Positions 50-54,298 of a stretch of 54,298 bases of DNA are shown here, piece by piece. Numbering within the stretch: the stretch's first letter is position 1; each line of letters starts with the position of its first letter. The position numbers and the translations under genes are program-made. Source of the stretch: Candidatus Woesearchaeota archaeon (GTDB lineage Archaea; Nanobdellota; Nanobdellia; Pacearchaeales; GW2011-AR1); the NCBI GenBank assembly GCA_964482915.1, contig CAYZYU010000001.1, positions 34,266-88,563 on the forward strand. Reading direction: 5' to 3'. The notes beneath the pieces were generated by a model. That model was not told the DNA's origin, did no database searches, and worked only from the letters and a program-made list of their open reading frames with translations.

Positions 50-418
50 TTATTCTTCTTTATTTTTCCACAAACCATGCAGATTGCAATAAGCTCTTGC
101 ACTAATAACCTTAAATGAGAATTTTGCTTCTGGTTTTGAATCTGGCTTAAGGAATACTTTTGCAATTTCCCCGGTTTCAGAAGTTGCTTCAATCCATTCA
201 ATATAATGTTCAGCGGTCATAGGATGTTTTTCCGAACCTATTTTTACTTTTTTTCCATCAATTACTGGAACATGTTTTTCTAGTGAAGCATCAACTGTAT
301 TTTCTTTTTGAAGTTTCATTGGTTGTCCGCAGCAGATTAAAACCCCTCCGCCTTCATGTACAACTTCAATAATATTTCCGCATATTTCACATTTGTATAT
401 TTCTCCTTTTTCTGCCAT
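50..418 (-). CDS. dfx: desulfoferrodoxin (2Fe superoxide reductase)
   Basis: 122-aa ORF. N-terminal desulforedoxin-type Cys cluster (CEICGN...ICCGQ) and C-terminal neelaredoxin-type residues (EKHVPVI, HPMTAEHYIEW, CNLHGLW). Recognised by eye. Confidence 0.9.
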   Translation of the reverse strand: MAEKGEIYKCEICGNIIEVVHEGGGVLICCGQPMKLQKENTVDASLEKHVPVIDGKKVKIGSEKHPMTAEHYIEWIEATSETGEIAKVFLKPDSKPEAKFSFKVISARAYCNLHGLWKNKEE

Positions 419-429
419 TTTAAGAATAG

Positions 430-1011
430 TTAATAATTTTCCTCCAGAATTTCATAATATGATTGAGGGTGCTTACATGCAGGACATTCATCAGGAGCTT
501 CTTTTCCTTCATGAACATATCCACAGTTTTTACATATCCACTTTACTACTTTATCCTTCTTGAAAACGTTTCCTTCCTCAATATTTTTTAGAAGTTTCCT
601 GTATCTTTTTTCATGATGTTCTTCGACTTCCCCAATTTCTTTAAATGAATCTGCAATTTCTTTGAAGCCTTCTTTTCTTGCTATCTTCTCAAATTCAGGG
701 TATAATTCACTCCATTCCTCTTTTTCTCCATTTGCAGATGCAAGAAGATTTTCTTTTGTTGTCCCTATTTTACCCGCAGGGTACATTGCAGTTATCTCAA
801 CTGGAGAGCCTCCAGACTTTTCTAAATGTTTGAAAAAAACCTTTGCATGTTCTTTCTCATTATCAGCTGTCTCTGTAAATATGGCATAAATTTGTTCATA
901 TCCTTCTTTTTTTGCTACAGAAGCAAAATAAGTATATCTGTTCCTTGCTTGACTTTCACCAGCAAATGCTTTTAGAAGATTTTTTTCAGTTTGGCTTCCC
1001 TTTAAGTCCAT
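430..1011 (-). CDS. rbr: rubrerythrin
   Basis: Track ORF 430-1062 trimmed to ATG 1011 (MDLKGSQTEKNL). Ferritin-like diiron helices with ExxH pairs (NEKEH, VEEHH) plus a C-terminal rubredoxin-like CKNCG...CPAC. Confidence 0.9.
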   Translation of the reverse strand: MDLKGSQTEKNLLKAFAGESQARNRYTYFASVAKKEGYEQIYAIFTETADNEKEHAKVFFKHLEKSGGSPVEITAMYPAGKIGTTKENLLASANGEKEEWSELYPEFEKIARKEGFKEIADSFKEIGEVEEHHEKRYRKLLKNIEEGNVFKKDKVVKWICKNCGYVHEGKEAPDECPACKHPQSYYEILEENY

Positions 1012-1065
1012 ATTTATAGGATAAGTAAAAGGGTTTAAATATATTTTGGGTGTGAAGAACAAATT

Positions 1066-13082: not shown

Positions 13083-14312
13083 ATGGAAACAATAACAGTT
13101 ATATATCTTTTTTATATGTTTTTAGCATTTTACTTTTTATTTTTGTTTATCTTAATTTACATTCAGAATAAGAAATACTTTTTTTATTATCCTAAACCTA
13201 AAAAAGATTATTCTTTAAGCATAGTAATTCCATGTTATAATGAAGGAAGCACTATTGAAGCAACAGTAAAATCTGTTCTAGATTCTGGATATAAGAACTT
13301 AAAGAAAGTTATAGTTGTTGATGATTGTTCTAAAGATAATTCTTATGAAATAATAAAATCTCTGGAGAGAAAATACCCTAAAGTAATGGCAGTACAGACT
13401 CCTAAAAACACTGGATGTGCAGCTGGCTCAAAGAATTATGGTGCTAAGTTTGTAGATACAGAATTAATAGGATTTAGTGATGGGGATTCTTTCATTGAAA
13501 AAGGAGCTATAGATAAAGTAGTAGGTTTTTTTAATGATGAGAAAATTGGAAGTGTTACATGTTCTGTGCTTGTTGAGAACAGAGATAAATTTATAGAAAG
13601 AGTTCAATCTGCAGAATATAAAGTAATAAAATTCTCAAGGAAACTCCTTGAATTTATTGATTCAATATATGTAACTCCTGGTCCACTTGGTGTATTTAGA
13701 AAGAGTGCGTTTGACAAAATTGGGGGATTTGATGAAAAGAACCTTACAGAAGATATTGAGATAACTTGGCATCTTCAAGCAGAGGGTTACAAGGTTAAAA
13801 TGTCTGTTCCTGCAAGAGCGTATACTATTGCTCCTTCTAACGCTAAAGATTGGATTAAACAGAGAAACAGATGGAATGTTGGAGGTATACAGACAATTTT
13901 TAAATATGGTAGAGATTGGTTTAGAAAGGGAATGCTTGGAAATTTTATACTTCCTTTTTTTGCACTTTCTTGGGTAATTGGTCTTTTTGGATTAGGAGTG
14001 CTTGTTTATAGACTTTTAAGAACACTAATTCTTAGAATATTTTCAACAACTTATTCTATTCAGACACAAACAGCAATTATTAGATTTGAAGATATTAGTT
14101 TAATGCCTAATGTTCTTATTTTCTTTGGATTAGTAATCTTCTTTTTGAGTTTATGGTTTACTTTAATAGCCTTGTTCAATATGAAAGAAGAGAATCATAA
14201 GAAAGAAAATTTCTTTGTAATAGGTTTTTATATGATTTTCTATGTGATGATATATCCGATAATTTTAATAAGTTCAATCTATAAATTTTTCAAGGGATCT
14301 AGAAAATGGTAG
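13083..14312 (+). CDS. processive family-2 glycosyltransferase (NodC/IcaA/chitin- or cellulose-synthase-like), integral membrane
   Basis: SIVIPCYNEG, DDCSKD, DGDS, TEDIEITW and QRNRW (D,D,D,QxxRW signature), with N- and C-terminal TM helices. Confidence 0.85.
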   Translation: METITVIYLFYMFLAFYFLFLFILIYIQNKKYFFYYPKPKKDYSLSIVIPCYNEGSTIEATVKSVLDSGYKNLKKVIVVDDCSKDNSYEIIKSLERKYPKVMAVQTPKNTGCAAGSKNYGAKFVDTELIGFSDGDSFIEKGAIDKVVGFFNDEKIGSVTCSVLVENRDKFIERVQSAEYKVIKFSRKLLEFIDSIYVTPGPLGVFRKSAFDKIGGFDEKNLTEDIEITWHLQAEGYKVKMSVPARAYTIAPSNAKDWIKQRNRWNVGGIQTIFKYGRDWFRKGMLGNFILPFFALSWVIGLFGLGVLVYRLLRTLILRIFSTTYSIQTQTAIIRFEDISLMPNVLIFFGLVIFFLSLWFTLIALFNMKEENHKKENFFVIGFYMIFYVMIYPIILISSIYKFFKGSRKW

Positions 14313-45083: not shown

Positions 45084-45860
45084 ATGGTGTCTGAGACTTT
45101 AATTTTTATTTTAGCAGGTTTTGCTACAGGTATAATAACAGGATTAGTTGGAGCTTCTGCGATAGTTGCATTTGCACCTCTTATATTAATCTTTTTTGAT
45201 TATAATGCATTTACACTTATAGGAATAAGTTTGGCTCTTGATGTTTTTGTCTCTCTTGGAGCATTATTTACTTATAAAAGATATAAACATATTGAGTTTA
45301 AAACAGGAATTTATCTTTCAATATTAGCAATATTGGGAGCAATCATAGGAAGTTATGTTTCTAGATCGATTTCTAATACTAATCTTGTTGGAGTTACTTC
45401 ATTAATAACCGCCTTTACAGGTATATTACTTTTCAGAAGAAAATCTAATCCTAAAGAAGTTAAGAAGCGAAATAATTATTCTAAAACAAGATTTTGGATT
45501 GCAATATTTGCCTCTTTTATTGTAGGTCTTGTTGGGGGGAGTCTTGGAGCTGCTGGGGGAGTTACTGTCTTGCTTTTGCTTATATTTATTCTTAATTTTG
45601 AGACTCATTCTGCAATTGGAACTTCTATTTTTGTTATGTTTTTTATTGCATTATTTGGAGCTTTAGCTCATATTTATTATATAAATTCAATGAATTTCCA
45701 GTGGGGACTCTTATTTTTTGCAATAATTGGTGGAGTTTTAGGATCTATTTTCTCAGCAAAATCTGCTAATCTTATAAAGGAAAAATATCTCAATAAAGTG
45801 GTGGGAATACTTTTATTTGTATTAGGTGTAGCTACATTTTTACATAGAATTGTCTTTTAA
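45084..45860 (+). CDS. TauE/SafE-family anion exporter membrane protein
   Basis: About 8 TM helices with internal duplication; GLVGASAIV and GGSLGAAGGV motifs. Confidence 0.8.
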   Translation: MVSETLIFILAGFATGIITGLVGASAIVAFAPLILIFFDYNAFTLIGISLALDVFVSLGALFTYKRYKHIEFKTGIYLSILAILGAIIGSYVSRSISNTNLVGVTSLITAFTGILLFRRKSNPKEVKKRNNYSKTRFWIAIFASFIVGLVGGSLGAAGGVTVLLLLIFILNFETHSAIGTSIFVMFFIALFGALAHIYYINSMNFQWGLLFFAIIGGVLGSIFSAKSANLIKEKYLNKVVGILLFVLGVATFLHRIVF

Positions 45861-45937
45861 ATATTTTTAATCAGATTTTTATTATACATTAAGTTTAATA
45901 ATCTATATTTTTTATTTATTCTTATCTATTGTTAAAG

Positions 45938-46714
45938 ATGGTGATCCAAGAACTAGTATTTCTTATAGCAGGTTTTGCTACAGGCATAATAACAGGTTTA
46001 GTTGGAGCTTCTGCGATAGTTATATTTATCCCAATCATATTGCTTTTTATTAATTACAGCGCTTTTGCATTAATAGGGGTTAGTTTATCTGTAGATGTGT
46101 TTGTTTCTCTATTGGCTATCTTTATCTATAGAAAATTTCATCATATTGATTTTAAAACAGGATTTTATTTAGCAATTCCTGCTGTATTTGGAGCTGTTCT
46201 TGGAAGTTATCTTTCAAAATTTGTTGCTGGTACTAATTTGATTTGGTTAACTTCATTATTTACTGCTCTGACAGGAATAATGCTTTTTTACAGAAAAGTA
46301 AAAGTGAAAGAAGTCCATACCTTAAAGGATTATTCAAAATCTAAACTTTGGATTGCTGTTGTACTTGCTTTTATTGTAGGCATTATTGGTGGGGGTCTTG
46401 GAGCTGCTGGAGGAATTGCTGTCTTTTTGCTTCTTGTTTTTTTCCTTAATTTTGAGACTCATTTAGCAATTGGTACTTCTATTTTTGTGATGTTTTTTGT
46501 GGCACTTTCCGGGGCATTATCTCATATTACCCGTATAAGTGAGATGGGCTTCCACTGGATATTACTTTTATATGCTGTTATAGGAGGAATTATTGGGGCT
46601 CTTTTTTCTTCTCGTTTAGCTAATAAAATAAGTGAGAAAAATCTTAATAGAATGGTTGGAATAATTTTGTTTGTATTAGGTACTTTAACTTTTATAAATA
46701 GTATATTAAGATAG
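45938..46714 (+). CDS. TauE/SafE-family membrane protein, tandem paralog
   Basis: Collinear with 45084-45860 (LIAGFATGIITGLVGASAIV identical stretch). ATG 45938 chosen by analogy (the track used TTG 45929). Confidence 0.8.
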   Translation: MVIQELVFLIAGFATGIITGLVGASAIVIFIPIILLFINYSAFALIGVSLSVDVFVSLLAIFIYRKFHHIDFKTGFYLAIPAVFGAVLGSYLSKFVAGTNLIWLTSLFTALTGIMLFYRKVKVKEVHTLKDYSKSKLWIAVVLAFIVGIIGGGLGAAGGIAVFLLLVFFLNFETHLAIGTSIFVMFFVALSGALSHITRISEMGFHWILLLYAVIGGIIGALFSSRLANKISEKNLNRMVGIILFVLGTLTFINSILR

Positions 46715-47555: not shown

Positions 47556-48134
47556 TTACTTTAAAATCTCTCCAAAAATCTTTTCAGAAATTCCTGCAGC
47601 ATTTGCTTCATCTGTATCTAGATGCAATGCTAAATCATACTTTTTGGATATTCTTACGATTATATTCTGGAAAATTGTCTTCCTCTGTCCAGGTATTTTT
47701 AGAGAGACTATCTGGTTTTCTTTTAATTTTAATTTTTTTGCTTGTTCTTCTGAGCAATGTAGATGTCTTTGTGCTATTATTGCAGGTATTTTTGTCTGCC
47801 CCTTTGGTCCTTTTACTAATACTTGAGTAGTTCCATGTATATCTCCTGATACTCTTATTTTTGGAATAGGGTTTAGATTTAATTGATAAGCGTCTGTTAG
47901 AGAAATTTCTGCTTGTGAATGATTCCTTAATGGTCCAAGAACTCTTGCTGCAATTTTACTTTTTCCATTTATTATATCTATCTTATCTTTTGAGGCAAAT
48001 TCTCCTGGCTGAGAGAGCTTTTTTATTGGAATTAATTTTTTTCCTTTTCCAAATAAATTTTCAAAATCTTCTTCACATAAATGTATATGTCTAGCTGAAA
48101 TTTCCACTGGGACTGAGATGTTTTTAAATTTCAT
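47556..48134 (-). CDS. pduL: PduL-type phosphate acyltransferase
   Basis: Two PduL repeats: ISARHIHLCEEDFENLFG and AQRHLHCSEEQAKKL. Confidence 0.8.
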   Translation of the reverse strand: MKFKNISVPVEISARHIHLCEEDFENLFGKGKKLIPIKKLSQPGEFASKDKIDIINGKSKIAARVLGPLRNHSQAEISLTDAYQLNLNPIPKIRVSGDIHGTTQVLVKGPKGQTKIPAIIAQRHLHCSEEQAKKLKLKENQIVSLKIPGQRKTIFQNIIVRISKKYDLALHLDTDEANAAGISEKIFGEILK

Positions 48135-49177
48135 TATAATTTTTTAATAACCTCTTCTATCATCATCCTCTCTTCATCTGTTTTTATTACATAAACTTTC
48201 GCCTTTGAGAATAGAGAAGATATTTTTCTTTCATTTTTGTAATTTTTCTTTTTGTTTAATTTAATACCTAAAAATTTTAATTGATTACATATGTCTTCCC
48301 TTAATCTTGGGACATTTTCTCCTATTGCTGCTGTAAATATCAAATTATCGAGTCCATTTAGTGCTGTAATGTAAGATCCTATTACTTTAACTATCCTATA
48401 AAGGAATAAATCATAAGCTAATTTACATTCAGGGTTTTTATCCATGTTTGCAAGTATATCCCTAAAATCATTAAATCCTGATATCCCTTTTAATCCGGAC
48501 TTATTTGTAAGTATATCTTCTACATCATACTTCTTTTTTTGTAGAAACAATATTATCCCGGGATCTATACTTCCTGAACGTGTTCCCATCATAATGCCCT
48601 CTAAAGGAGTTAAACCCATACTAGTATCTATGGGTTTTCCATTTTTTATTGCTGATATGCTTGAACCAGAACCTAGATGGCAGATTATTGTTTTACCTTT
48701 CAAATTTTGAGAGACATACTCATGAGATAATCCATGAAACCCATAACGTCTTATATTATATTTTTCAGTTAATTCTTTAGGTATTGCATAAGTTTTTGCA
48801 ACTTCAGGTAAATCTGCAAAAAACATTGTATCAAAAACAGCATATTGTGGTCTCTTGAATTTTTCACATAATTCTATTACCATTAATTGTTTTGGATTAT
48901 GTAATGGAGCAAATTCTGAAAATTGTTTTATCTTCTTTTTGACTTCAGGAGTTATAAGTGAAGTCTCTTTTAATTCTCCTCCATGAACCACCCTATGGGC
49001 AATAATTTCTATATTTCTGTCTATAAACTGATTAAATATCTCTTCTATAGCTTTCTCATAATCTTTCTTAGATTTTAATTTTTCTTTATTTCCAGATTCT
49101 AGGTGATTTAAATCTTCAAATAAACTATATTTTATACTAGAACTCCCAACGTTAAGAACTAATATTTTTCTGGACAT
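48134..49177 (-). CDS. ackA: acetate (short-chain acyl) kinase, compact form
   Basis: ILVLNVGSSSIKYSLF, AHRVVHGG, RRYGFHGLSH, HLGSGSSISAI, DTSMGLTPLEGIMMGTRSGSIDP, TDEE. Start is ATG 49177 or 49207. The stop overlaps the pduL start in TAATG. Confidence 0.85.
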   Translation of the reverse strand: MSRKILVLNVGSSSIKYSLFEDLNHLESGNKEKLKSKKDYEKAIEEIFNQFIDRNIEIIAHRVVHGGELKETSLITPEVKKKIKQFSEFAPLHNPKQLMVIELCEKFKRPQYAVFDTMFFADLPEVAKTYAIPKELTEKYNIRRYGFHGLSHEYVSQNLKGKTIICHLGSGSSISAIKNGKPIDTSMGLTPLEGIMMGTRSGSIDPGIILFLQKKKYDVEDILTNKSGLKGISGFNDFRDILANMDKNPECKLAYDLFLYRIVKVIGSYITALNGLDNLIFTAAIGENVPRLREDICNQLKFLGIKLNKKKNYKNERKISSLFSKAKVYVIKTDEERMMIEEVIKKL

Positions 49178-49404
49178 GTAATTTTCCCCCACATTATCTT
49201 TTTCCATATTCTTTCATGAATGTATAAAAATAAGATTTTTATTATACTTAATACCACCGTAAATTTTATAGACATCTTTAGATTTCCATAAACTAAATAT
49301 ACCGCTATTAAAGTAATTACAAATGCAATTACCTCCCATGTGAATGCTTTTAGGAAACTTCTCTGAGGAGTGGAGGTTATATGCACCTCTCTTTTTTTAG
49401 CCAT
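49159..49404 (-). CDS. small membrane protein (DUF2061-like)
   Basis: 81 aa with two TM helices; FLKAFTWEVIAFVITL pattern. Confidence 0.5.
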   Translation of the reverse strand: MAKKREVHITSTPQRSFLKAFTWEVIAFVITLIAVYLVYGNLKMSIKFTVVLSIIKILFLYIHERIWKKIMWGKITCPEKY

Positions 49405-49472
49405 TATATTTATAATAAGATAATCTTTTTAAGCTTTAATACTTAGTAGTTTTGGATAATAAATCCAAAGAA

Positions 49473-49644
49473 GCCCCGATAGTTCAGAGGCCAAGAACGC
49501 CACCCTCTCAAATTACGCCGGGATTCAGTCGATGAGATCATAATTCCAGCCTTCTCTAAGGCAGGCTTATTAAATTTTATCGCCTTATTTTTCTTAGGGC
49601 GATGGAGTACGGTGGTAACCCGAGTTCGAATCTCGGCCGGGGCG
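49473..49644 (+). tRNA. tRNA-Glu (anticodon CUC) with a 99-nt intron at 37/38
   Basis: Exons 49473-49510 and 49610-49644. Acceptor GCCCCGA/CCGGGGC (A7:C66 mismatch), D stem GUUC/GAAC, anticodon stem CCACC/GGUGG, loop CU-CUC-A|C, T arm CCGAG-UUCGAAU-CUCGG, discriminator G. Confidence 0.8.
49511..49609 (+). other. tRNA-Glu intron with a canonical bulge-helix-bulge motif
   Basis: Central 4-bp helix CUCU (49505-08) / GGAG (49604-07). 3-nt bulges CA|A (49509-11) and UA|C (49608-10). Inner helix AU/AU plus CGCC (49516-19) / GGCG (49598-601). Confidence 0.7.
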
Positions 49645-49817
49645 TTTATCCTTAGGTTTAACATAGCTATATAAAACGAATAATTCTGCGTAGAAATGAT
49701 GCAGTTTTTGAACAGAGAGGTGAAATAAATGGTTTGGTGCTTAGAAAGGGAGGTGAACTAGTTAAATTCTTAAAAGCTAAACAAAATATTTATAAATTAC
49801 ATATATATCTAATATAT

Positions 49818-49970
49818 ATGCCTAAAAAGCAGATAATTGTAAAATTTGAGGGGTCTGAGATTCTTGAGAGAAAAGCTTCTAAGTTTGGAACTGGTGCTCA
49901 TGTAATTATTCCTAAAGAATACATAAACAAAAAAGTAAAAATTATTATGGAGGATGAAGATGACAAGTAA
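49818..49970 (+). CDS. small SpoVT/AbrB-like (DUF2080-like) protein
   Basis: 50 aa from ATG 49818: MPKKQIIVKFEGSEILERKASKFGTGAHVIIPKEYINKKVKIIMEDEDDK. The G.GAHVIIPKEYI..KVKI pattern is AbrB/DUF2080-like. Overlaps the giant ORF start by 17 nt. Confidence 0.5.
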   Translation: MPKKQIIVKFEGSEILERKASKFGTGAHVIIPKEYINKKVKIIMEDEDDK

Positions 49971-52900
49971 AAAGTATTTTTTTGCTTTAATCAGCATAAT
50001 TTTGATAACACTCTTATCCTATGAGGTTTTAGCAGGGACTAATGTTCCAGATTGTGGAATAACAATCAATATCTCAGGACAATATGAATTAAACGCGGGA
50101 ATTTCTGGGACAGCAACTTGTCTAACAATTAATACAAGTAATATAGAACTAGATTGCAAAGGAAATACTATTTCTTATGGTTCAGATGGAGTTAATGGAA
50201 GAATTGGAATATCTGTTGCCCTTGGAACAGTTTATCTTGAAAATATCACAATAAAAAATTGCATAATTCAAGACACAAATCCTGCTGGAACCACGGGGTA
50301 TGGAATATATGCATTAAGAACATCTAATTCATATATAATTAACAATACAATTAATACAAGCGGAACTGCTACAAATCACGGGATTTATTTATCTACTGCA
50401 AGTCAAAATAATCTTCTTGAAAATAATACCATAAATGCTTATGGAAGCACTACAGGAAACTATGGGATTTATTTAATTTATCAATCAAATAATAACACAA
50501 TTAGAAACAATGAAGTAAAGGCAACAGGAACAACAACAAGCTATGCACTCATGCTTTATAGCTCAGAATATAATTTAATAGAAAACAACAATTTTTCAAG
50601 TTACACTCTTTTAACAACAGGAAATTCAGATATGAATGTAGTTTATTTATACTATGGTTCAAGATATAATATTTTAAGAAATAATTACATTTATTCAGAT
50701 GCTGAAGCAAGAAATTACCATATTTATCTAAATTTAAATAATAATTATAATATCATTGCAAATAATACTATAATTCCAAATGATGATGAAGGAACAAACC
50801 CTGGAATTTATATTCTTGGTTCTGATTACAATCTTGTAGAGAATAATACCATTAGAACAAATGGAACAACAGCCAATTATGGGGTTTGGTTAGGAGCATC
50901 TTCAACAGGAAATATGATTAATAAAAATAATATTATCACAAATGGAACTACAACCAACAATTACGGAATTTATTTGGTAAGTGCACTTTACAATAATATA
51001 ACAGAAAATCAGATCTCCTCAAATGGATTAACAACAGGTAATGCAGGAATAACTTTATCAAGTGCCCAAAGAAATTACCTTGCAAGAAATAATATTTCTA
51101 CAAGTGGGACAACAACAGGATATGGAATTTATTTGACTGGTTCTGATTATGACACAGTAGAAGATAATGATATTTCTACATTTGGAACAAGCACTGCAAA
51201 TGATGGAATCTATTTAATCTCTTCTACAAACAATAACATAATAAACAACAGAATAACTGCAAATAGCACCTCTTCTGGAAATATTGGTATTGCTTTATAT
51301 ACCTCAACAGGAAATTCTTATGTTTATAATAATACTATAAAAACTGATGGAACAACTACAAATTATGGTATTTTATTACAGACTGCAAATAATAATTCGA
51401 TAGTAAATAATCAAATATCAACCAGTGGAACAACTACAACAAATCATGGAATTTATCTTTATATAAGTGCAAATGCAAACAAAATCTACTATAATAATAT
51501 CTCTACATATGGCACAACAACAAATCATGGGATTTCACTTAGCACAACTTCAGATGGAAATGAAATTGTTGGAAATTATATAATAGCTAATGGCTCAACA
51601 ACAGCCTCCGCAACAACAACAAATAATTTTGGAATTGCTGCTGCTACAAGTTGTTATAATAATCTTATGGAAAATAATACAATACTAAATTCCGGAGGAA
51701 GGTATAACTATGGTATATATATTTCAGTAGAATCTGGATATTCTACAATTAGAGGAAATAATATTACTACTGGAGGAAGTGGGGCCACAAATGCAGGAAT
51801 TTATCTTTCAGAAAGCAGAAACAACCTTCTAGAAGAAAATATAATCTCTACTTCAGGTTCTGCTACAGATTACGGTATTTATCTGTATTCTAATGCAAAA
51901 TATAATTTTGTTAAGAAAAATAATATTACAACCTCAGGAAGTACTAATTCTTATGGAATTCTTCTTGATGCAGTAATTCCAAACTTCCCCCACAATAATT
52001 CTTTTCAAGAAAATAATTTTATTAGTATTGCTGGAACAGAATTTAGATTTGCTGATGCAGAAATAGATGAAAATTATTTAATTAGCCAGATTATTGACAG
52101 TTACTTATTTACTGGAATTGGAAGCAAAATGATTGTTAGAAATGACTCTGCAGGAGAAATAAAATTCTTAGATAGATTAACTGGTTCTGGAACAGGATTT
52201 AGTGATGATGTATACATTTTAGAGAATTATGCTTTTATTGATTCGAGTATCCCAGGATTAAACAAGTCAGCAGAGATAACCATTTATAATTTACCAACAA
52301 CTTCAAATGAATTACAAATTTACAGGAATGGTATAATCTGCAGTGATTGTTTTAATTTAACTTCAATGCAAGCAGGAAATGTAACATTTAATGTAACACA
52401 AGGAGGAGGATACTCAATTAATTCCTCAAGTTCATCTCCTTTAATAGAATTAGATTTCCCTGAAAATGATTATTTAACAAATCAGCAAAATATTAATTTT
52501 AATTTTACAGCTAGAGATGATTCTGTAGGAGATTTAAATTGTAGCATTTATATTGATTCTATTTTAAATCAAACCAATTCAACAACTCAAAATAATACTC
52601 TAACTAATTTTGCTGCTAGTGGATTAACTGAAGGAAATCATAACTGGAATATTGAATGTTTTGATTCAGCAGGAAATAGAAATATTTCTGAAACAATAAA
52701 TTTTACAATAACAATTTCACAATCATCCTCATTATTTAATTATCCAGAGAATAAATCTTATTTTAATAATTTAGACTTTATATTGTTAAATTATACTGTT
52801 TTAGATTTAGATTTAAAGATAATGACTGCTTGGATTTATGGGGATGAAATTCTTCTAAATACAACTTCAGGATTAACTAATGGTTCATCTTTAGTTTACA

Positions 52901-54298
52901 ATTGGACAAGTTTAGATTTAGGACAATATAACTGGTCTATAATAATCTGGAATGGAATAAAGAACTCTTCTATTGAATATTCTTACTTTAATAATATTAA
53001 TTTAACAATAAATTGTGAAGCAGGAGGAGATTATCTTGAAGATCCAACTGTTTTAATTCAAGGAAGAATAAATGACAGTAGCGGGATAGTTTCATTAAGT
53101 TCACAAATAATTAATATTTCTATTTACAATGATTCCACAGAGGAAATAATCACTTCTTCAAATATAACCACAGAATCAAATGGTGTATTTAATAGTATAT
53201 TTCCTGGATTGGAAATAGGAAATTACACTGTTTATACAAAAGTTAATTATCAAGGAATTGAAATAAATAGTTCAGACTCATTTAAAATTTCTCTTGGATA
53301 TGAAGCAGGTTACAATGCAGGATTTATTGCTGGAAATGAATCAGGATATATTTCTGGATTTGATTATGGTAATATCACAGGATTTAATTTAGGAAATATC
53401 ACAGGATTTATACTTGGAAACAATACTGGTTTCACATTAGGAAATACAACTGGATTTGTATACGGTAACCTCACAGGATTTGTTTTAGGAAATTCAACTG
53501 GTTACATTTTAGGTAATGCAACTGGATTTACATTAGGAAATTATACTGGGTTTATATTAGGAAATCAAACAGGATTTATAATAGGAAATATTTCAGGTTT
53601 CAATCTTGGTAATTCAACCGGTTTTACACTTGGAAATTATACTGGATTCATATTAGGAAACATTTCAGGATTCTACTTTGGAAACCAGACAGGTTATACT
53701 ACAGGTTACAATGCAGGATTTATTGCTGGAAATGAATCAGGATATATTTCTGGATTTGATTATGGTAATATCACAGGATTTAATTTAGGAAATATCACAG
53801 GATTTATACTTGGAAACAATACTGGTTTCACATTGGGCAACTCAACTGGTTATACCTTGGGATTTAACACAGGTAATATAACCGGATTTACTCTAGGTAA
53901 TACTACCGGCTTTGTATACGGAAATAATACTGGTTATATTTTAGGATTTAATACAGGCAACTTAACAGGCTTCACATTAGGAAACACAACTGGCTTCGTT
54001 CTTGGCAACTCTACAGGTTATATTTTAGGTAATGCAACTGGCTTTGTATATGGTAACACAACAGGATTCATATTAGGAAACACAACAGGATTTGTATATG
54101 GAAATATCACTGGATTTGCTTTGGGTAATTCCACCGGATTTACACTTGGAAATTTAACAGGTTATATTCTTGGAAATCAAACAGGTTATAACGCAGGATT
54201 CAGCACAGGAAACACAACTGGATTTAATCTAGGAAATACTACAGGTTTCACATTGGGCAACTCAACTGGTTATACCTTGGGATTTAACACAGGTAATA
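49954..54298 (+). CDS. giant secreted/surface protein, 3'-truncated by the window (signal peptide, parallel beta-helix, beta-sandwich modules, octapeptide array)
   Basis: Hand translation from ATG 49954 (or 49960) to 54298 has no stop codon (1,448 codons). Not on the supplied track. N-terminus MKMTSKKYFFALISIILITLLSYEVLAG. Confidence 0.85.
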   Translation, partial: MKMTSKKYFFALISIILITLLSYEVLAGTNVPDCGITINISGQYELNAGISGTATCLTINTSNIELDCKGNTISYGSDGVNGRIGISVALGTVYLENITIKNCIIQDTNPAGTTGYGIYALRTSNSYIINNTINTSGTATNHGIYLSTASQNNLLENNTINAYGSTTGNYGIYLIYQSNNNTIRNNEVKATGTTTSYALMLYSSEYNLIENNNFSSYTLLTTGNSDMNVVYLYYGSRYNILRNNYIYSDAEARNYHIYLNLNNNYNIIANNTIIPNDDEGTNPGIYILGSDYNLVENNTIRTNGTTANYGVWLGASSTGNMINKNNIITNGTTTNNYGIYLVSALYNNITENQISSNGLTTGNAGITLSSAQRNYLARNNISTSGTTTGYGIYLTGSDYDTVEDNDISTFGTSTANDGIYLISSTNNNIINNRITANSTSSGNIGIALYTSTGNSYVYNNTIKTDGTTTNYGILLQTANNNSIVNNQISTSGTTTTNHGIYLYISANANKIYYNNISTYGTTTNHGISLSTTSDGNEIVGNYIIANGSTTASATTTNNFGIAAATSCYNNLMENNTILNSGGRYNYGIYISVESGYSTIRGNNITTGGSGATNAGIYLSESRNNLLEENIISTSGSATDYGIYLYSNAKYNFVKKNNITTSGSTNSYGILLDAVIPNFPHNNSFQENNFISIAGTEFRFADAEIDENYLISQIIDSYLFTGIGSKMIVRNDSAGEIKFLDRLTGSGTGFSDDVYILENYAFIDSSIPGLNKSAEITIYNLPTTSNELQIYRNGIICSDCFNLTSMQAGNVTFNVTQGGGYSINSSSSSPLIELDFPENDYLTNQQNINFNFTARDDSVGDLNCSIYIDSILNQTNSTTQNNTLTNFAASGLTEGNHNWNIECFDSAGNRNISETINFTITISQSSSLFNYPENKSYFNNLDFILLNYTVLDLDLKIMTAWIYGDEILLNTTSGLTNGSSLVYNWTSLDLGQYNWSIIIWNGIKNSSIEYSYFNNINLTINCEAGGDYLEDPTVLIQGRINDSSGIVSLSSQIINISIYNDSTEEIITSSNITTESNGVFNSIFPGLEIGNYTVYTKVNYQGIEINSSDSFKISLGYEAGYNAGFIAGNESGYISGFDYGNITGFNLGNITGFILGNNTGFTLGNTTGFVYGNLTGFVLGNSTGYILGNATGFTLGNYTGFILGNQTGFIIGNISGFNLGNSTGFTLGNYTGFILGNISGFYFGNQTGYTTGYNAGFIAGNESGYISGFDYGNITGFNLGNITGFILGNNTGFTLGNSTGYTLGFNTGNITGFTLGNTTGFVYGNNTGYILGFNTGNLTGFTLGNTTGFVLGNSTGYILGNATGFVYGNTTGFILGNTTGFVYGNITGFALGNSTGFTLGNLTGYILGNQTGYNAGFSTGNTTGFNLGNTTGFTLGNSTGYTLGFNTGN
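50245..51975 (+). repeat. about 20 imperfect 22-27-aa parallel beta-helix (PbH1/NosD-like) coils, in frame
   Basis: Recurring N-N-x-I-x-x-x-G-(T/S)-T-T-x-N-Y-G-I-Y-L, for example NNTINTSGTATNHGIYLS, NNTINAYGSTTGNYGIYLI, NNIITNGTTTNNYGIYLV, NNQISTSGTTTTNHGIYLY. Confidence 0.75.
53296..54298 (+). repeat. 24-nt-periodic in-frame tandem array encoding the octapeptide G-N-x-(T/S)-G-(F/Y)-x-(L/I/V/Y)
   Basis: About 41 units to the window edge, for example GNITGFNL GNITGFIL GNNTGFTL GNTTGFVY GNLTGFVL GNSTGYIL. Punctuated by GYNAGFIAGNESGYISGFDY and GFNT half-units. Exact DNA repeats: 53306-53438 = 53702-53834 and 53824-53878 = 54244-54298. Confidence 0.9.

What the first reader, a model, noticed from the sequence alone, without database searches (positions are those of the whole stretch)
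53296..54298. Array of at least 40 octapeptides GNxTGFxL, each carrying an N-glycosylation sequon: a possible new solenoid or glyco-stalk repeat
From 53296 to the window edge the protein is a strict 8-residue (24-nt) repeat, G-N-x-(T/S)-G-(F/Y)-x-(L/I/V/Y/F), with a 4-residue sub-period (G-N-x-T / G-F-x-L). By hand count about 36 N-x-S/T sequons fall within about 334 residues, one per unit. The x position is freely variable (I, N, T, L, S, A, Y, Q).

I do not recognise this as a named repeat family. It is not the hexapeptide LbH, pentapeptide, PbH1 or collagen repeat. The closest analogy I know is the 8/16/48-residue periodicity of bacterial ice-nucleation proteins (AGYGSTxT), which stack Thr, Gly and aromatic ladders into a beta-solenoid.

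Two readings are possible. One is a regular solenoid with Asn, Thr and Phe/Tyr ladders. The other is an extended stalk saturated with AglB-type N-glycans. Either would be an unusual surface structure for an archaeon.
Basis: partly seen in the sequence, partly recalled or inferred. Interest (0 to 1): 0.85.

Follow-up and report, generated by a model that had tools for sequence, protein, structure and literature searches.

The report
Glycine-every-fourth repeat stalk with glycosylation sites
A giant surface protein of a Woesearchaeota archaeon contains a long repeat with glycine at every fourth residue, a known motif type used here outside the cell, in which every second four-residue unit carries an N-glycosylation site flanked by aromatic residues; it most likely forms a sugar-coated stalk of adjustable length.

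Summary
The array is real. From 53296 to the window edge, all 84 four-residue units (tetrads) start with Gly. 36 are G-N-x-[ST], 47 are G-[FY]-x-x, and the last is cut by the window edge. There are 36 sequons, against 10.1±2.6 after shuffling.

The strict period is 4, not 8. Eleven extra aromatic tetrads shift the octad register.

The ORF (49960 to beyond 54298) encodes a surface protein with this layout:
- signal peptide
- PbH1 beta-helix
- Ig-like domains
- the array
- further domains, then a C-terminal membrane anchor

Near-identical alleles from Woesearchaeota MAGs carry 86 or 121 tetrads. Orthologues carry 36-40.

It is not an unrecognised repeat class. Pfam Yae1_N (deca-GX3, also the FliH GxxxG repeats) scores above its threshold. 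The only ordered PDB match is the T4 gp5 beta-helix, and it is weak. Ice-nucleation, LbH and pentapeptide models do not match.

The extracellular, sequon-bearing subclass appears undescribed:
- Asn at the second position is coupled to Ser/Thr at the fourth in 370 of 388 tetrads.
- Asp almost never replaces Asn.
- Sequon tetrads are never adjacent (0 observed, 93±7 expected).
- The whole ectodomain is sequon-enriched; cytoplasmic proteins are not.

The fold is unresolved. AlphaFold2 gives low-confidence beta strands without an alignment and a low-confidence helical hairpin with one.

Best reading: a length-variable, N-glycosylated GX3 stalk. This is a new variant of a known kind.

The parts
49960..54298 (+). 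Open reading frame of the surface protein. It runs off the window end. The full-length allele P0048 is 2067 aa.
   Evidence: The frame is open from 49939, with Met codons at 49954 and 49960. P0048 has the same N-terminus and 99.7% DNA identity over 49473-54253.
49960..50037 (+). Predicted signal peptide, MTSKKYFFALISIILITLLSYEVLAG.
   Evidence: Read directly from the sequence: a hydrophobic N-terminus followed by A-G. No signal-peptide predictor was run.
50041..52053 (+). Right-handed parallel beta-helix (PbH1/NosD-like) head region. Boundaries are approximate.
   Evidence: Pfam Beta_helix 6.3e-29 and NosD 5.7e-26, five stretches each. NCBIfam para_beta_helix repeat, 7 stretches.
52462..52710 (+). 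Ig-like domain (Big_13).
   Evidence: Pfam Big_13, 3.6e-06, 27.8 bits against a 27-bit threshold, residues 837-919.
52711..53295 (+). Further beta-rich, sequon-rich domains just before the array. No Pfam model matches.
   Evidence: Partly conserved in P0001: 57% identity over 38% of the query 52591-53400. Conserved in P0052, P0054 and P0058.
53296..53367 (+). N-terminal cap of the array, GYEAGYNAGFIAGNESGYISGFDY. These are aromatic GX3 tetrads of FliH/Yae1 type and contain one sequon.
   Evidence: The best Pfam Yae1_N stretch is array residues 5-41. The best NCBIfam FliH stretch is residues 5-50.
53368..53703 (+). Module 1: 14 regular octads G-N-x-[ST]-G-[FY]-x-x.
53704..53763 (+). Internal cap, GYNAGFIAGNESGYISGFDY. 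It marks the start of a duplicated module.
   Evidence: A 148-nt direct repeat, 53306-53453 and 53702-53849, is 97% identical.
53764..54183 (+). Module 2: octads with three single-tetrad insertions (N-A-A-N sites).
   Evidence: This 420-nt block is tandemly duplicated in allele L003, at 95.5% identity over 490 nt.
54184..54298 (+). Junction GYNAGFST and the start of module 3, cut by the window edge.
   Evidence: In L003 the array continues about 440 nt further.

Best explanation
The region is the window-truncated part of a very long GX3 'glycine-stripe' repeat. This is the same sequence class as the deca-GX3 motif of Yae1/Lto1 and the GxxxG repeats of FliH. Here it sits in the extracellular part of a roughly 2,100-2,200-residue, C-terminally anchored surface protein of a Woesearchaeota (DPANN) archaeon.

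Shown:
- Gly is at every fourth residue without exception.
- Tetrads alternate between G-[FY]-x-x and G-N-x-[ST].
- The array lies between an N-terminal beta-helix plus Ig-like head and membrane-proximal domains.
- Its length changes by whole tetrads and by 35-tetrad blocks: 36-40, 86 or 121 tetrads.

Inferred:
- The array forms an elongated, self-associating rod.
- The rod is most likely made of helices packed through the glycine stripe, as proposed for Yae1-Lto1 and FliH.
- It works as a length-adjustable stalk holding the adhesin- or lyase-like head away from the membrane.
- The Asn of every sequon tetrad is N-glycosylated by AglB after Sec export.
- In a helix, the aromatic residues at Asn-4 and Asn+4 lie one turn above and below each Asn. 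Asn-glycan and aromatic side chains would then form a continuous stripe beside the glycine stripe.

The stalk and glycosylation part is more secure than the helical part.
For: - Gly at 84 of 84 tetrad starts; F/Y at position 2 of all 47 non-sequon tetrads.
- Pfam Yae1_N 3.8e-21, 74.9 bits against a 27.5-bit threshold. FliH models match at 1e-23 over the GxxxG segment.
- In FliH, position x1 also prefers Tyr, and x1 behaves differently from x2 and x3 (PMC2674601).
- Gly mutations in the deca-GX3 motif of Lto1 abolish Yae1-Lto1 complex formation (PMC4523923).
- AlphaFold models of Yae1-type domains are coiled coils with a Gly-Gly interface (PMC12810181).
- AlphaFold2 with a 22-sequence alignment gives two long helices, 2-71 and 75-143.
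- Tetrad-level insertions are tolerated at different places in different orthologues. This fits a structure whose unit is one tetrad.
- Architecture and membrane anchor.
- Length variation: 86 against 121 tetrads in 99.8%-identical alleles, 36-40 in orthologues.
- Glycosylation, across 47 related proteins: Asn at x1 goes with Ser/Thr at x3 in 370 of 388 tetrads. The figure is 15% for aromatic tetrads. Asp occurs at x1 only 5 times. Virus-type arrays interchange Asn and Asp and show no such coupling.
- Sequon tetrads are never adjacent: 0 observed against 93±6.6 expected.
- Sequon density per 100 aa is 10.8 in the array and 4.6-4.8 in the rest of the ectodomain (z = 2.5 and 4.6). It is 0.5 in ten cytoplasmic proteins of the same window (z = 0.1).
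- A sequon-free acidic GX3 array (P0067) lies on a contig with bacterial markers.
- A published comparison refers to a distinct AglB type in DPANN archaea, citing Nikolayev et al. 2020 (PMC8993221).
Against: - The non-Gly residues are Thr, Asn, Phe, Leu, Ile and Tyr, with almost no Ala, Glu, Gln, Lys or Arg. By standard propensity scales (my own knowledge, not computed) these favour beta strands over helices, unlike FliH.
- AlphaFold2 without an alignment predicts 6-residue strands. Both models are low confidence, pLDDT 39.5 and 49.6. The alignment contained FliH-like Bathyarchaeia sequences that may bias the model towards helix.
- The hairpin turn in that model falls at the midpoint with no sequence feature there, so it may be an artefact of folding a single chain.
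- The Pfam match is driven by the cap tetrads. The pure-octad relative P0002 gets no Yae1_N hit and P0056 falls below threshold.
- No oligosaccharyltransferase gene was seen in the part of the window that was scanned, and no glycan data exist.
- The stalk function is inferred from position and length variation only.
Confidence: 0.45

Rival explanations
1. The array is a beta-solenoid or a gp5-like triple-stranded beta-helix. Each octad would be one short strand plus a Gly kink. Asn, Thr and aromatic residues would stack in ladders, possibly in a trimer. The N-x-T triplets would then be structural rather than glycan acceptors.
For: - The only ordered PDB match is the T4 gp5 C-terminal beta-helix, E = 2.4e-4. 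Its G-N-x-T aligns in register over about 10 octads (GNVTIIVEGNADITVKGDATTLVEGNQT).
- Position 7 of the octad is mostly beta-branched, like the Val of gp5.
- AlphaFold2 without an alignment gives 6-residue strands with 2-residue breaks.
- The weak Foldseek hits to that model are nearly all beta-solenoids.
- The residue composition favours beta (for the counts; propensity from general knowledge).
- Related G-[ND]-x-[TS] arrays occur in phage tail-fibre-like proteins carrying Mtd_N (PF18454 in the tool's precomputed domain column; the family name is from my own knowledge).
Against: - No Pfam Gp5_C or ice-nucleation hit at E<=1.
- No Foldseek match at or below E = 0.001; the best is 0.31, with TM-scores below 0.25. 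The model has pLDDT 39.5.
- Gly occupies octad position 5, which I recall as an inward-facing side-chain position in gp5.
- Single-tetrad insertions occur at varying places. They would put Asn tetrads on top of aromatic tetrads and break any ladder.
- Asp never replaces Asn, and Asn is tied to Ser/Thr at 95%. The virus-type arrays lack this coupling.
- Glycans on every rung of an in-register ladder, 4.8 Å apart, would clash. The ectodomain-wide sequon enrichment suggests the sequons are used.
Confidence: 0.2
2. The array has no fixed fold. It would be an extended, flexible, mucin-like spacer whose only selected features are dense N-glycosylation sites and a lack of charge.
For: - Both AlphaFold2 models are low confidence and contradict each other.
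- No structure-based match was found.
- The composition is low-complexity and uncharged.
- Copy number varies freely.
- Sequon density is very high.
Against: - A disordered spacer does not explain Gly at 84 of 84 positions (121 of 121 in the full allele), kept despite synonymous codon turnover.
- It does not explain an invariant aromatic residue at position 2 of every non-sequon tetrad.
- The same rules hold in distant lineages, Woesearchaeota and Bathyarchaeia.
- From general knowledge, known disordered stalks are rich in Pro, Ser and Thr. This array has no Pro at all.
Confidence: 0.15
3. The array is a cohesive aromatic-glycine domain, comparable to the GLFG repeats of nucleoporins or to an amyloid-like zipper. 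It would mediate self-association or adhesion of the symbiont to its host surface.
For: - The composition is Gly 25%, Thr 16%, Asn 15%, Phe 10%, Leu 9%, with almost no charge. From my own knowledge this resembles cohesive FG domains.
- The protein is an adhesin-like surface protein of a DPANN archaeon.
Against: - From general knowledge, FG domains do not keep a strict residue spacing. Here spacing is exact over hundreds of residues.
- Dense glycosylation would oppose cohesion.
- No direct evidence was obtained.
Confidence: 0.05

Closest known systems
Deca-GX3 motif of Yae1/Lto1 (Pfam Yae1_N, PF09811)
   Same: Gly at every fourth residue over many consecutive tetrads, often with aromatic residues after the Gly. 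The Pfam model scores above its threshold on the array. The motif mediates protein-protein association that depends on the Gly residues (PMC4523923).
   Different: Yae1/Lto1 have 10 tetrads, are cytosolic eukaryotic Fe-S adaptor proteins, and carry no sequons. Here there are 84 or more tetrads (121 in the full allele), the location is extracellular, every second tetrad is G-N-x-S/T, and helix-favouring residues are nearly absent. Relatives made only of octads fall below the Pfam threshold.
GxxxG repeats of the flagellar/type III export protein FliH (YscL)
   Same: An AxxxG(xxxG)m pattern of variable length, with Tyr favoured at x1 and x1 behaving differently from x2 and x3 (PMC2674601). NCBIfam FliH models match the array's GxxxG stretch at up to 1e-23.
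   Different: The scores (83.7 bits) are far below the FliH family thresholds (180-293 bits), because only the repeat segment matches. FliH is cytoplasmic, binds FliI, is rich in Glu, Gln and Ala, and has 2-10 repeats on average (PMC2674601).
C-terminal triple-stranded beta-helix of phage T4 gp5 (PDB 1K28, 4JJ2) and VgrG spikes
   Same: An eight-residue repeat with G-N/D-x-T in the same register. It is the only ordered PDB sequence match (E = 2.4e-4).
   Different: The Pfam Gp5_C model does not match. The octad here has Gly at position 5 and Phe/Tyr at position 6. Tetrad insertions are tolerated. No spike or baseplate context exists; the protein is a membrane-anchored cellular surface protein.
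   Same: An 8-residue unit rich in Gly, Thr and aromatic residues; very long arrays on a surface protein.
   Different: No HMM match. The invariant period here is 4. Asn-x-Ser/Thr coupling and Asp exclusion point to glycan acceptor sites rather than a water-ordering TxT face.
Heavily N-glycosylated archaeal surface proteins (S-layer glycoproteins, archaellins; AglB substrates)
   Same: A secreted, membrane-anchored protein whose ectodomain is enriched in N-x-S/T about ten-fold over cytoplasmic proteins of the same genome.
   Different: To my knowledge, known substrates have scattered sequons. Here 53 sequons sit at fixed 8-residue spacing inside a GX3 scaffold, each flanked by aromatic tetrads.

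Membership tests
GX3 / GxxxG glycine repeats (Pfam Yae1_N PF09811; FliH repeats) | Gly at every fourth residue over at least 10 consecutive tetrads | tested here: met
   84 of 84 tetrads in the window; 121 of 121 in allele L003.
GX3 / GxxxG glycine repeats (Pfam Yae1_N PF09811; FliH repeats) | Profile HMM match above the curated threshold | tested here: met
   Yae1_N scores 74.9 bits against 27.5, E = 3.8e-21, 4 stretches. The best stretches are the cap tetrads. Relative P0002 has no hit and P0056 scores 20.4 bits, below threshold. FliH models score well below their full-protein thresholds.
GX3 / GxxxG glycine repeats (Pfam Yae1_N PF09811; FliH repeats) | Aromatic or large residue preferred at x1, with x1 distinct from x2 and x3 | tested here: met
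   F/Y at x1 in 47 of 47 non-sequon tetrads; x2 is the most variable position. FliH preference from PMC2674601.
GX3 / GxxxG glycine repeats (Pfam Yae1_N PF09811; FliH repeats) | Helix-compatible residues (Glu, Gln, Ala, Arg, Lys) at x2 and x3 | tested here: not met
   Array composition: Thr 55, Asn 50, Phe 35, Leu 29, Ile 23, Tyr 22, against Ala 9, Glu 3, Gln 3, Lys 0, Arg 0.
GX3 / GxxxG glycine repeats (Pfam Yae1_N PF09811; FliH repeats) | Alpha-helical coiled coil packed through the Gly stripe | tested here: inconclusive
   AlphaFold2 with an alignment gives a helical hairpin at pLDDT 49.6. Without an alignment it gives beta strands at pLDDT 39.5.
GX3 / GxxxG glycine repeats (Pfam Yae1_N PF09811; FliH repeats) | Cytosolic adaptor or regulator context (Lto1/Rli1, or the FliI ATPase) | tested here: not met
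   The protein has a signal peptide, a beta-helix and Ig-like ectodomain, and a C-terminal transmembrane segment.
T4 gp5 / VgrG triple-stranded beta-helix (Pfam Gp5_C) | Octapeptide repeat with Gly and Asn/Asp at the kink and Val at position 7 | tested here: inconclusive
   G-N-x-T aligns with gp5 at E = 2.4e-4. Position 7 is Ile/Thr/Asn/Val, and position 5 is always Gly, unlike gp5.
T4 gp5 / VgrG triple-stranded beta-helix (Pfam Gp5_C) | Profile HMM match | tested here: not met
   No Gp5_C hit among Pfam families at E<=1.
T4 gp5 / VgrG triple-stranded beta-helix (Pfam Gp5_C) | Trimeric assembly | not testable with these tools
   Only single-chain prediction was available.
Ice-nucleation protein repeats (Pfam Ice_nucleation) | Profile HMM match to the AGYGSTxT octads | tested here: not met
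   Not among Pfam hits at E<=1.
Ice-nucleation protein repeats (Pfam Ice_nucleation) | Nested 8/16/48-residue periodicity | tested here: inconclusive
   TRF also reports 48-nt and 96-nt periods at 71-76% matches. The tetrad class string is a simple alternation with irregular insertions.
LbH hexapeptide, pentapeptide and PbH1 repeats | Profile HMM match within the array | tested here: not met
   None is listed for 53296-54297. The PbH1/Beta_helix hits lie in residues 30-700 only.
AglB-dependent N-glycoprotein | N-x-S/T sequons (x not Pro) in an extracytoplasmic segment | tested here: met
   36 sequons in the window and 53 in the full allele, located between the signal peptide and the transmembrane anchor.
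AglB-dependent N-glycoprotein | Sequence signs of selection for the sequon itself | tested here: met
   Asn-Ser/Thr coupling in 370 of 388 tetrads; Asp at x1 only 5 times. N-x-S/T 37 against reversed S/T-x-N 3 in the array; ectodomain z = 2.5-4.6 against cytoplasmic z = 0.1.
AglB-dependent N-glycoprotein | Oligosaccharyltransferase (AglB/STT3) encoded in the genome | not testable with these tools
   The four ORFs of 700 aa or more are a class I tRNA synthetase, a topoisomerase, CDC48 and PolB. None of the 30 window ORFs scanned is STT3-like; about 24 further ORFs of 100 aa or more were not scanned. Only 54 kb of the genome is held.
AglB-dependent N-glycoprotein | Glycan attached to the Asn residues | not testable with these tools
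   This needs glycoproteomics.

The most novel reading that the evidence does not exclude
Archaea may have turned the cytoplasmic GX3 glycine-stripe motif into a new kind of extracellular 'glyco-rod'. This would be a tightly packed rod with three features. Sequon tetrads are inserted at fixed spacings of 8, 12 or 16 residues, depending on lineage. Each Asn-glycan is sandwiched between aromatic side chains one turn above and below. The rod length is tuned by tandem duplication. If so, it would be a natural scaffold presenting tens of N-glycans at a defined pitch on cell surfaces across several archaeal phyla.
Probability: 0.3. Interest if true: 0.75.

Novelty: new variant of a known kind. Interest (0 to 1): 0.55.

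Why it matters
If the reading holds, a motif known from cytoplasmic proteins (Yae1/Lto1, FliH) has a widespread second life as an extracellular, glycan-bearing structural element in archaea.

- An exhaustive HMMER scan found 1,361 representative proteins at E<=1e-3. They fall into sequon-bearing, sequon-free and virus-type classes.
- The sequence rules are simple and unusually strict: Gly every fourth residue, Asn tied to Ser/Thr, no Asp, no adjacent sequon tetrads, and aromatic neighbours.
- The array is therefore a clean natural system for asking how AglB handles dense sequons. It also lets one ask whether aromatic neighbours promote or stabilise glycosylation, and what fold long GX3 repeats really adopt. 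That last question is still open for FliH and Yae1.
- For DPANN biology, it marks a giant, length-polymorphic surface protein that may set the reach of a beta-helix head towards host cells.

Tried and rejected
- PDB sequence searches with the array and with relatives P0072 and P0056 returned only gp5 and low-complexity inserts, such as Plasmodium pyridoxal kinase. No solved relative was found.
- Foldseek of the alignment-free AlphaFold2 model found nothing at or below E = 0.001; the best hit was E = 0.31. I treat it as meaningless because the model has pLDDT 39.5. The helical model was not searched for the same reason.
- A second homologue search with the Ig-like region found only P0001. Orthologues came from the exhaustive HMMER scan instead.
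- I tested whether P0004, with Asp at -2 of 15 of 16 array sequons, shows a bacterial PglB-type D/E-x-N-x-S/T signature.
  - Its contig has no match in the phage or plasmid collections.
  - The closest named relatives of its PIF1 helicase neighbour are Proteobacteria at only about 44% identity.
  - A neighbouring secreted protein has D/E at -2 in 1 of 12 sequons.
  - The Asp may simply reflect an acidic x3 position, so the lead is left open.
- Cluster look-ups gave no organism names.
- The ice-nucleation, LbH, pentapeptide, collagen and Gly-zipper_YMGG readings were rejected. Gly-zipper_YMGG scored 26.5 bits against a 28.9-bit threshold; the others gave no Pfam match.
- I first read the divergence of the last 45 nt of the window from L002 as an assembly break. 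That was wrong. The window is collinear with allele L003, which carries an extra 420-nt module.
Full report
**1. The observation**

I cut it into four-residue units (tetrads) and counted.
- All 84 tetrads start with Gly.
- 36 are G-N-x-[ST] (32 Thr, 4 Ser).
- 47 are G-[FY]-x-x.
- The last is cut by the window edge.

There are exactly 36 N-x-S/T sequons. Shuffling the same residues gives 10.1±2.6. TRF and the repeat finder confirm a 24-nt period.

Codons at the invariant residues are diverse. Gly uses GGA 49, GGT 25, GGC 8 and GGG 1. The 36 octads are only 65% identical at DNA level. The pattern is therefore maintained at protein level.

Three corrections are needed.
- The strict period is 4, not 8. 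A 24-residue cap (GYEAGYNAGFIAGNESGYISGFDY), a second internal cap and several N-A-A-N sites add 11 extra aromatic tetrads and shift the octad register.
- The window holds 36 sequon octads, not 40 or more.
- Position 7 is biased towards Ile, Thr, Asn and Val.

**2. The gene and the organism**

The frame is open from 49939, with a hydrophobic signal-peptide-like start at 49954/49960. Pfam finds Beta_helix and NosD (PbH1) over roughly residues 30-700 and a Big_13 Ig-like domain at 837-919.

The exhaustive HMMER scan recovered the full-length protein, P0048 (2067 aa). After the array come further sequon-rich domains, a Cys-rich segment, one C-terminal transmembrane segment and a short cytoplasmic tail.

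Its contig and two others are Candidatus Woesearchaeota MAGs. The window also encodes CDC48, family B DNA polymerase, RFC, eRF1 and Nre. It has 30.6% G+C. All of this fits a DPANN archaeon.

**3. Length variation**

- The window is collinear to its last base with allele L003, at 99.79% identity over 4,708 nt. The array there has 121 tetrads and 53 sequons.
- Allele P0048/L002 has 86 tetrads and 37 sequons. The difference is a 420-nt (35-tetrad) tandem duplication.
- Inside the window, 53306-53453 and 53702-53849 are 97% identical. This marks an earlier module duplication.
- Orthologues P0052, P0054, P0058 and P0001 have single modules of 36-40 tetrads with the same caps.

**4. Comparison with known families**

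- Pfam Yae1_N (the deca-GX3 motif) scores 74.9 bits against a 27.5-bit threshold.
- NCBIfam FliH models match the GxxxG segment at up to 1e-23, far below their whole-protein thresholds.
- Gly-zipper_YMGG falls just below threshold. Ice-nucleation, LbH, pentapeptide and Gp5_C models do not appear.
- The only ordered PDB sequence match is the T4 gp5 beta-helix (E = 2.4e-4), with G-N-x-T in register.

The Yae1_N match rests mostly on the cap tetrads. The pure-octad relative P0002 has no hit and P0056 is below threshold.

From the literature:
- FliH repeats are AxxxG(xxxG)m, with Tyr favoured at x1, and are proposed to form helix-helix dimers (PMC2674601).
- Gly mutations in the deca-GX3 motif of Lto1 abolish Yae1-Lto1 complex formation (PMC4523923).
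- AlphaFold models of Yae1-type domains are coiled coils with a Gly-Gly interface (PMC12810181).

**5. The wider family**

The HMMER scan of 1.84 billion representatives gives 1,361 proteins at E<=1e-3. I sorted the 192 sequences retrieved into classes.
- 47 have aromatic plus sequon tetrads. These include Woesearchaeota proteins, proteins named Bathyarchaeia or Bathyarchaeota by NCBI, and others of unknown origin.
- 47 have aromatic tetrads with few or no sequons. They include P0067, which lies on a contig with HU and BON genes, so it is bacterial.
- 46 have G-[ND]-x-x tetrads only. Two of the G-[ND] type, P0016 and P0032, are tail-fibre-like proteins carrying Mtd_N (PF18454; the family name is from my own knowledge).

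In the first class:
- Asn at x1 goes with Ser/Thr at x3 in 370 of 388 tetrads. The figure is 15% after aromatic x1.
- Asp at x1 occurs only 5 times.
- The virus-type arrays interchange Asn and Asp with no coupling, 58% and 54%.
- Sequon tetrads are never adjacent: 0 observed against 93±6.6 expected.
- The usual spacing is 2, 3 or 4 tetrads, depending on lineage. The Woesearchaeota octad is therefore one setting of a more general tetrad scaffold.

**6. Evidence for glycosylation (indirect)**

- Sequon density per 100 aa is 10.8 in the array (z = 10.6) and 4.6-4.8 in the rest of the ectodomain (z = 2.5 and 4.6). It is 0.5 in ten cytoplasmic proteins of the window (z = 0.1).
- The reversed motif S/T-x-N occurs 3 times in the array, against 37 for N-x-S/T.
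- Asp exclusion and the spacing rule also fit an acceptor-site role.
- A published comparison refers to a distinct AglB type in DPANN archaea (PMC8993221).
- No oligosaccharyltransferase is among the 30 window ORFs scanned. The rest of the genome could not be searched.

**7. Fold**

- AlphaFold2 on the 334 residues alone gives 6-residue strands with 2-residue breaks, at pLDDT 39.5.
- With a 22-sequence alignment of arrays (A1), the first 144 residues become two long helices, at pLDDT 49.6.
- Foldseek finds nothing significant.

The fold is therefore unresolved. Sequence arguments pull in different directions.
- Tetrad-level insertions and the x1-conserved, x2-variable pattern fit a helix with a glycine stripe.
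- In a helix, the aromatic residues at Asn±4 would sit directly above and below each Asn.
- The Thr/Asn/Ile/Phe-rich composition and the gp5 match favour beta.
- Exact Gly spacing and invariant aromatics across phyla argue against simple disorder.

**8. Verdict**

The array is real and striking. It belongs to the known GX3/GxxxG repeat class rather than being categorically new. It is an apparently undescribed extracellular, sequon-bearing variant. Neither Pfam nor NCBIfam has a dedicated model, and text searches for the Pfam family name and accession found no paper on such arrays.

The best-supported function is a length-adjustable, N-glycosylated stalk in a giant Woesearchaeota surface protein. 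Whether it is helical or beta remains open.

Noticed in passing
window 49446-54253, compared with locus L002: The surface-protein gene and about 480 nt upstream are 99.7% identical to Woesearchaeota contig CAZTCF010000001.1. The syntenic genes upstream (acetate kinase, PTAC, HhH-GPD, TauE, RFC) are only 78-82% identical. The switch is sharp, near 49450-49470. This points to recent transfer or recombination of this gene between related species, or to a chimeric co-assembly.
   Followed up: partly
L003 3706-5157; L002 gene 10001-16204: Two alleles that are about 99.8% identical differ by a 420-nt (35-tetrad) tandem duplication. They carry 121 tetrads with 53 sequons and 86 tetrads with 37 sequons.
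   Followed up: yes
52 arrays in 47 related proteins, including P0001-P0030, P0048, P0052-P0058 and P0088: Sequon tetrads (G-N-x-S/T) are never adjacent: 0 observed against 93±6.6 expected. Their usual spacing is lineage-specific. It is 2 tetrads in Woesearchaeota, 3 in P0014 and 4 in P0007.
   Followed up: yes
P0016, P0032, P0038, P0049-P0051, P0072: A separate class of Gly-every-fourth arrays is made only of G-[ND]-x-[TS/V] tetrads. It occurs in proteins that look like phage or virus tail fibres; P0016 and P0032 carry an Mtd_N domain (family name from my own knowledge). Asn and Asp interchange and there is no sequon coupling. Their structure also appears unsolved.
   Followed up: partly
P0007, P0010, P0019, P0020 and about 20 similar proteins: In small Bathyarchaeia proteins, an N-terminal membrane anchor is followed by a 25-45-tetrad GX3 array. 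The array ends in G-V-I-D-G-A-G-R-G-[YF]-T-I and runs into a conserved Cys/His-containing C-terminal domain with no Pfam match.
   Followed up: no
P0004 on locus L001 4444-5739: A protein with an Lcl_C (DUF1566) domain has Asp or Glu at -2 of 16 of 16 array sequons, which resembles the bacterial PglB sequon D/E-x-N-x-S/T. The host taxon could not be determined, and the Asp may simply reflect an acidic x3 position.
   Followed up: partly
window 13083-14312 (+): A family 2 glycosyltransferase (Glycos_transf_2, 2e-29) is the only glycosylation-related gene found among the window ORFs scanned.
   Followed up: no
window 45084-45860 and 45929-46714 (+); 47556-49207 (-): Two tandem TauE/SafE-family exporter paralogues lie here, where L002 has one. 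Next to them is an acetate kinase plus PTAC (phosphate propanoyltransferase-type) pair.
   Followed up: no
P0052, P0054, P0058 (C-termini): Orthologues carry a conserved cytoplasmic tail after the transmembrane segment (GKEVY..G..IGK...IY....KIYGW). JGI names P0054 a PRC-barrel protein. The window's allele family (P0048) has a different, shorter tail.
   Followed up: no
window 50-1062 (-): Desulfoferrodoxin and rubrerythrin genes lie side by side, which fits an anaerobic lifestyle.
   Followed up: no
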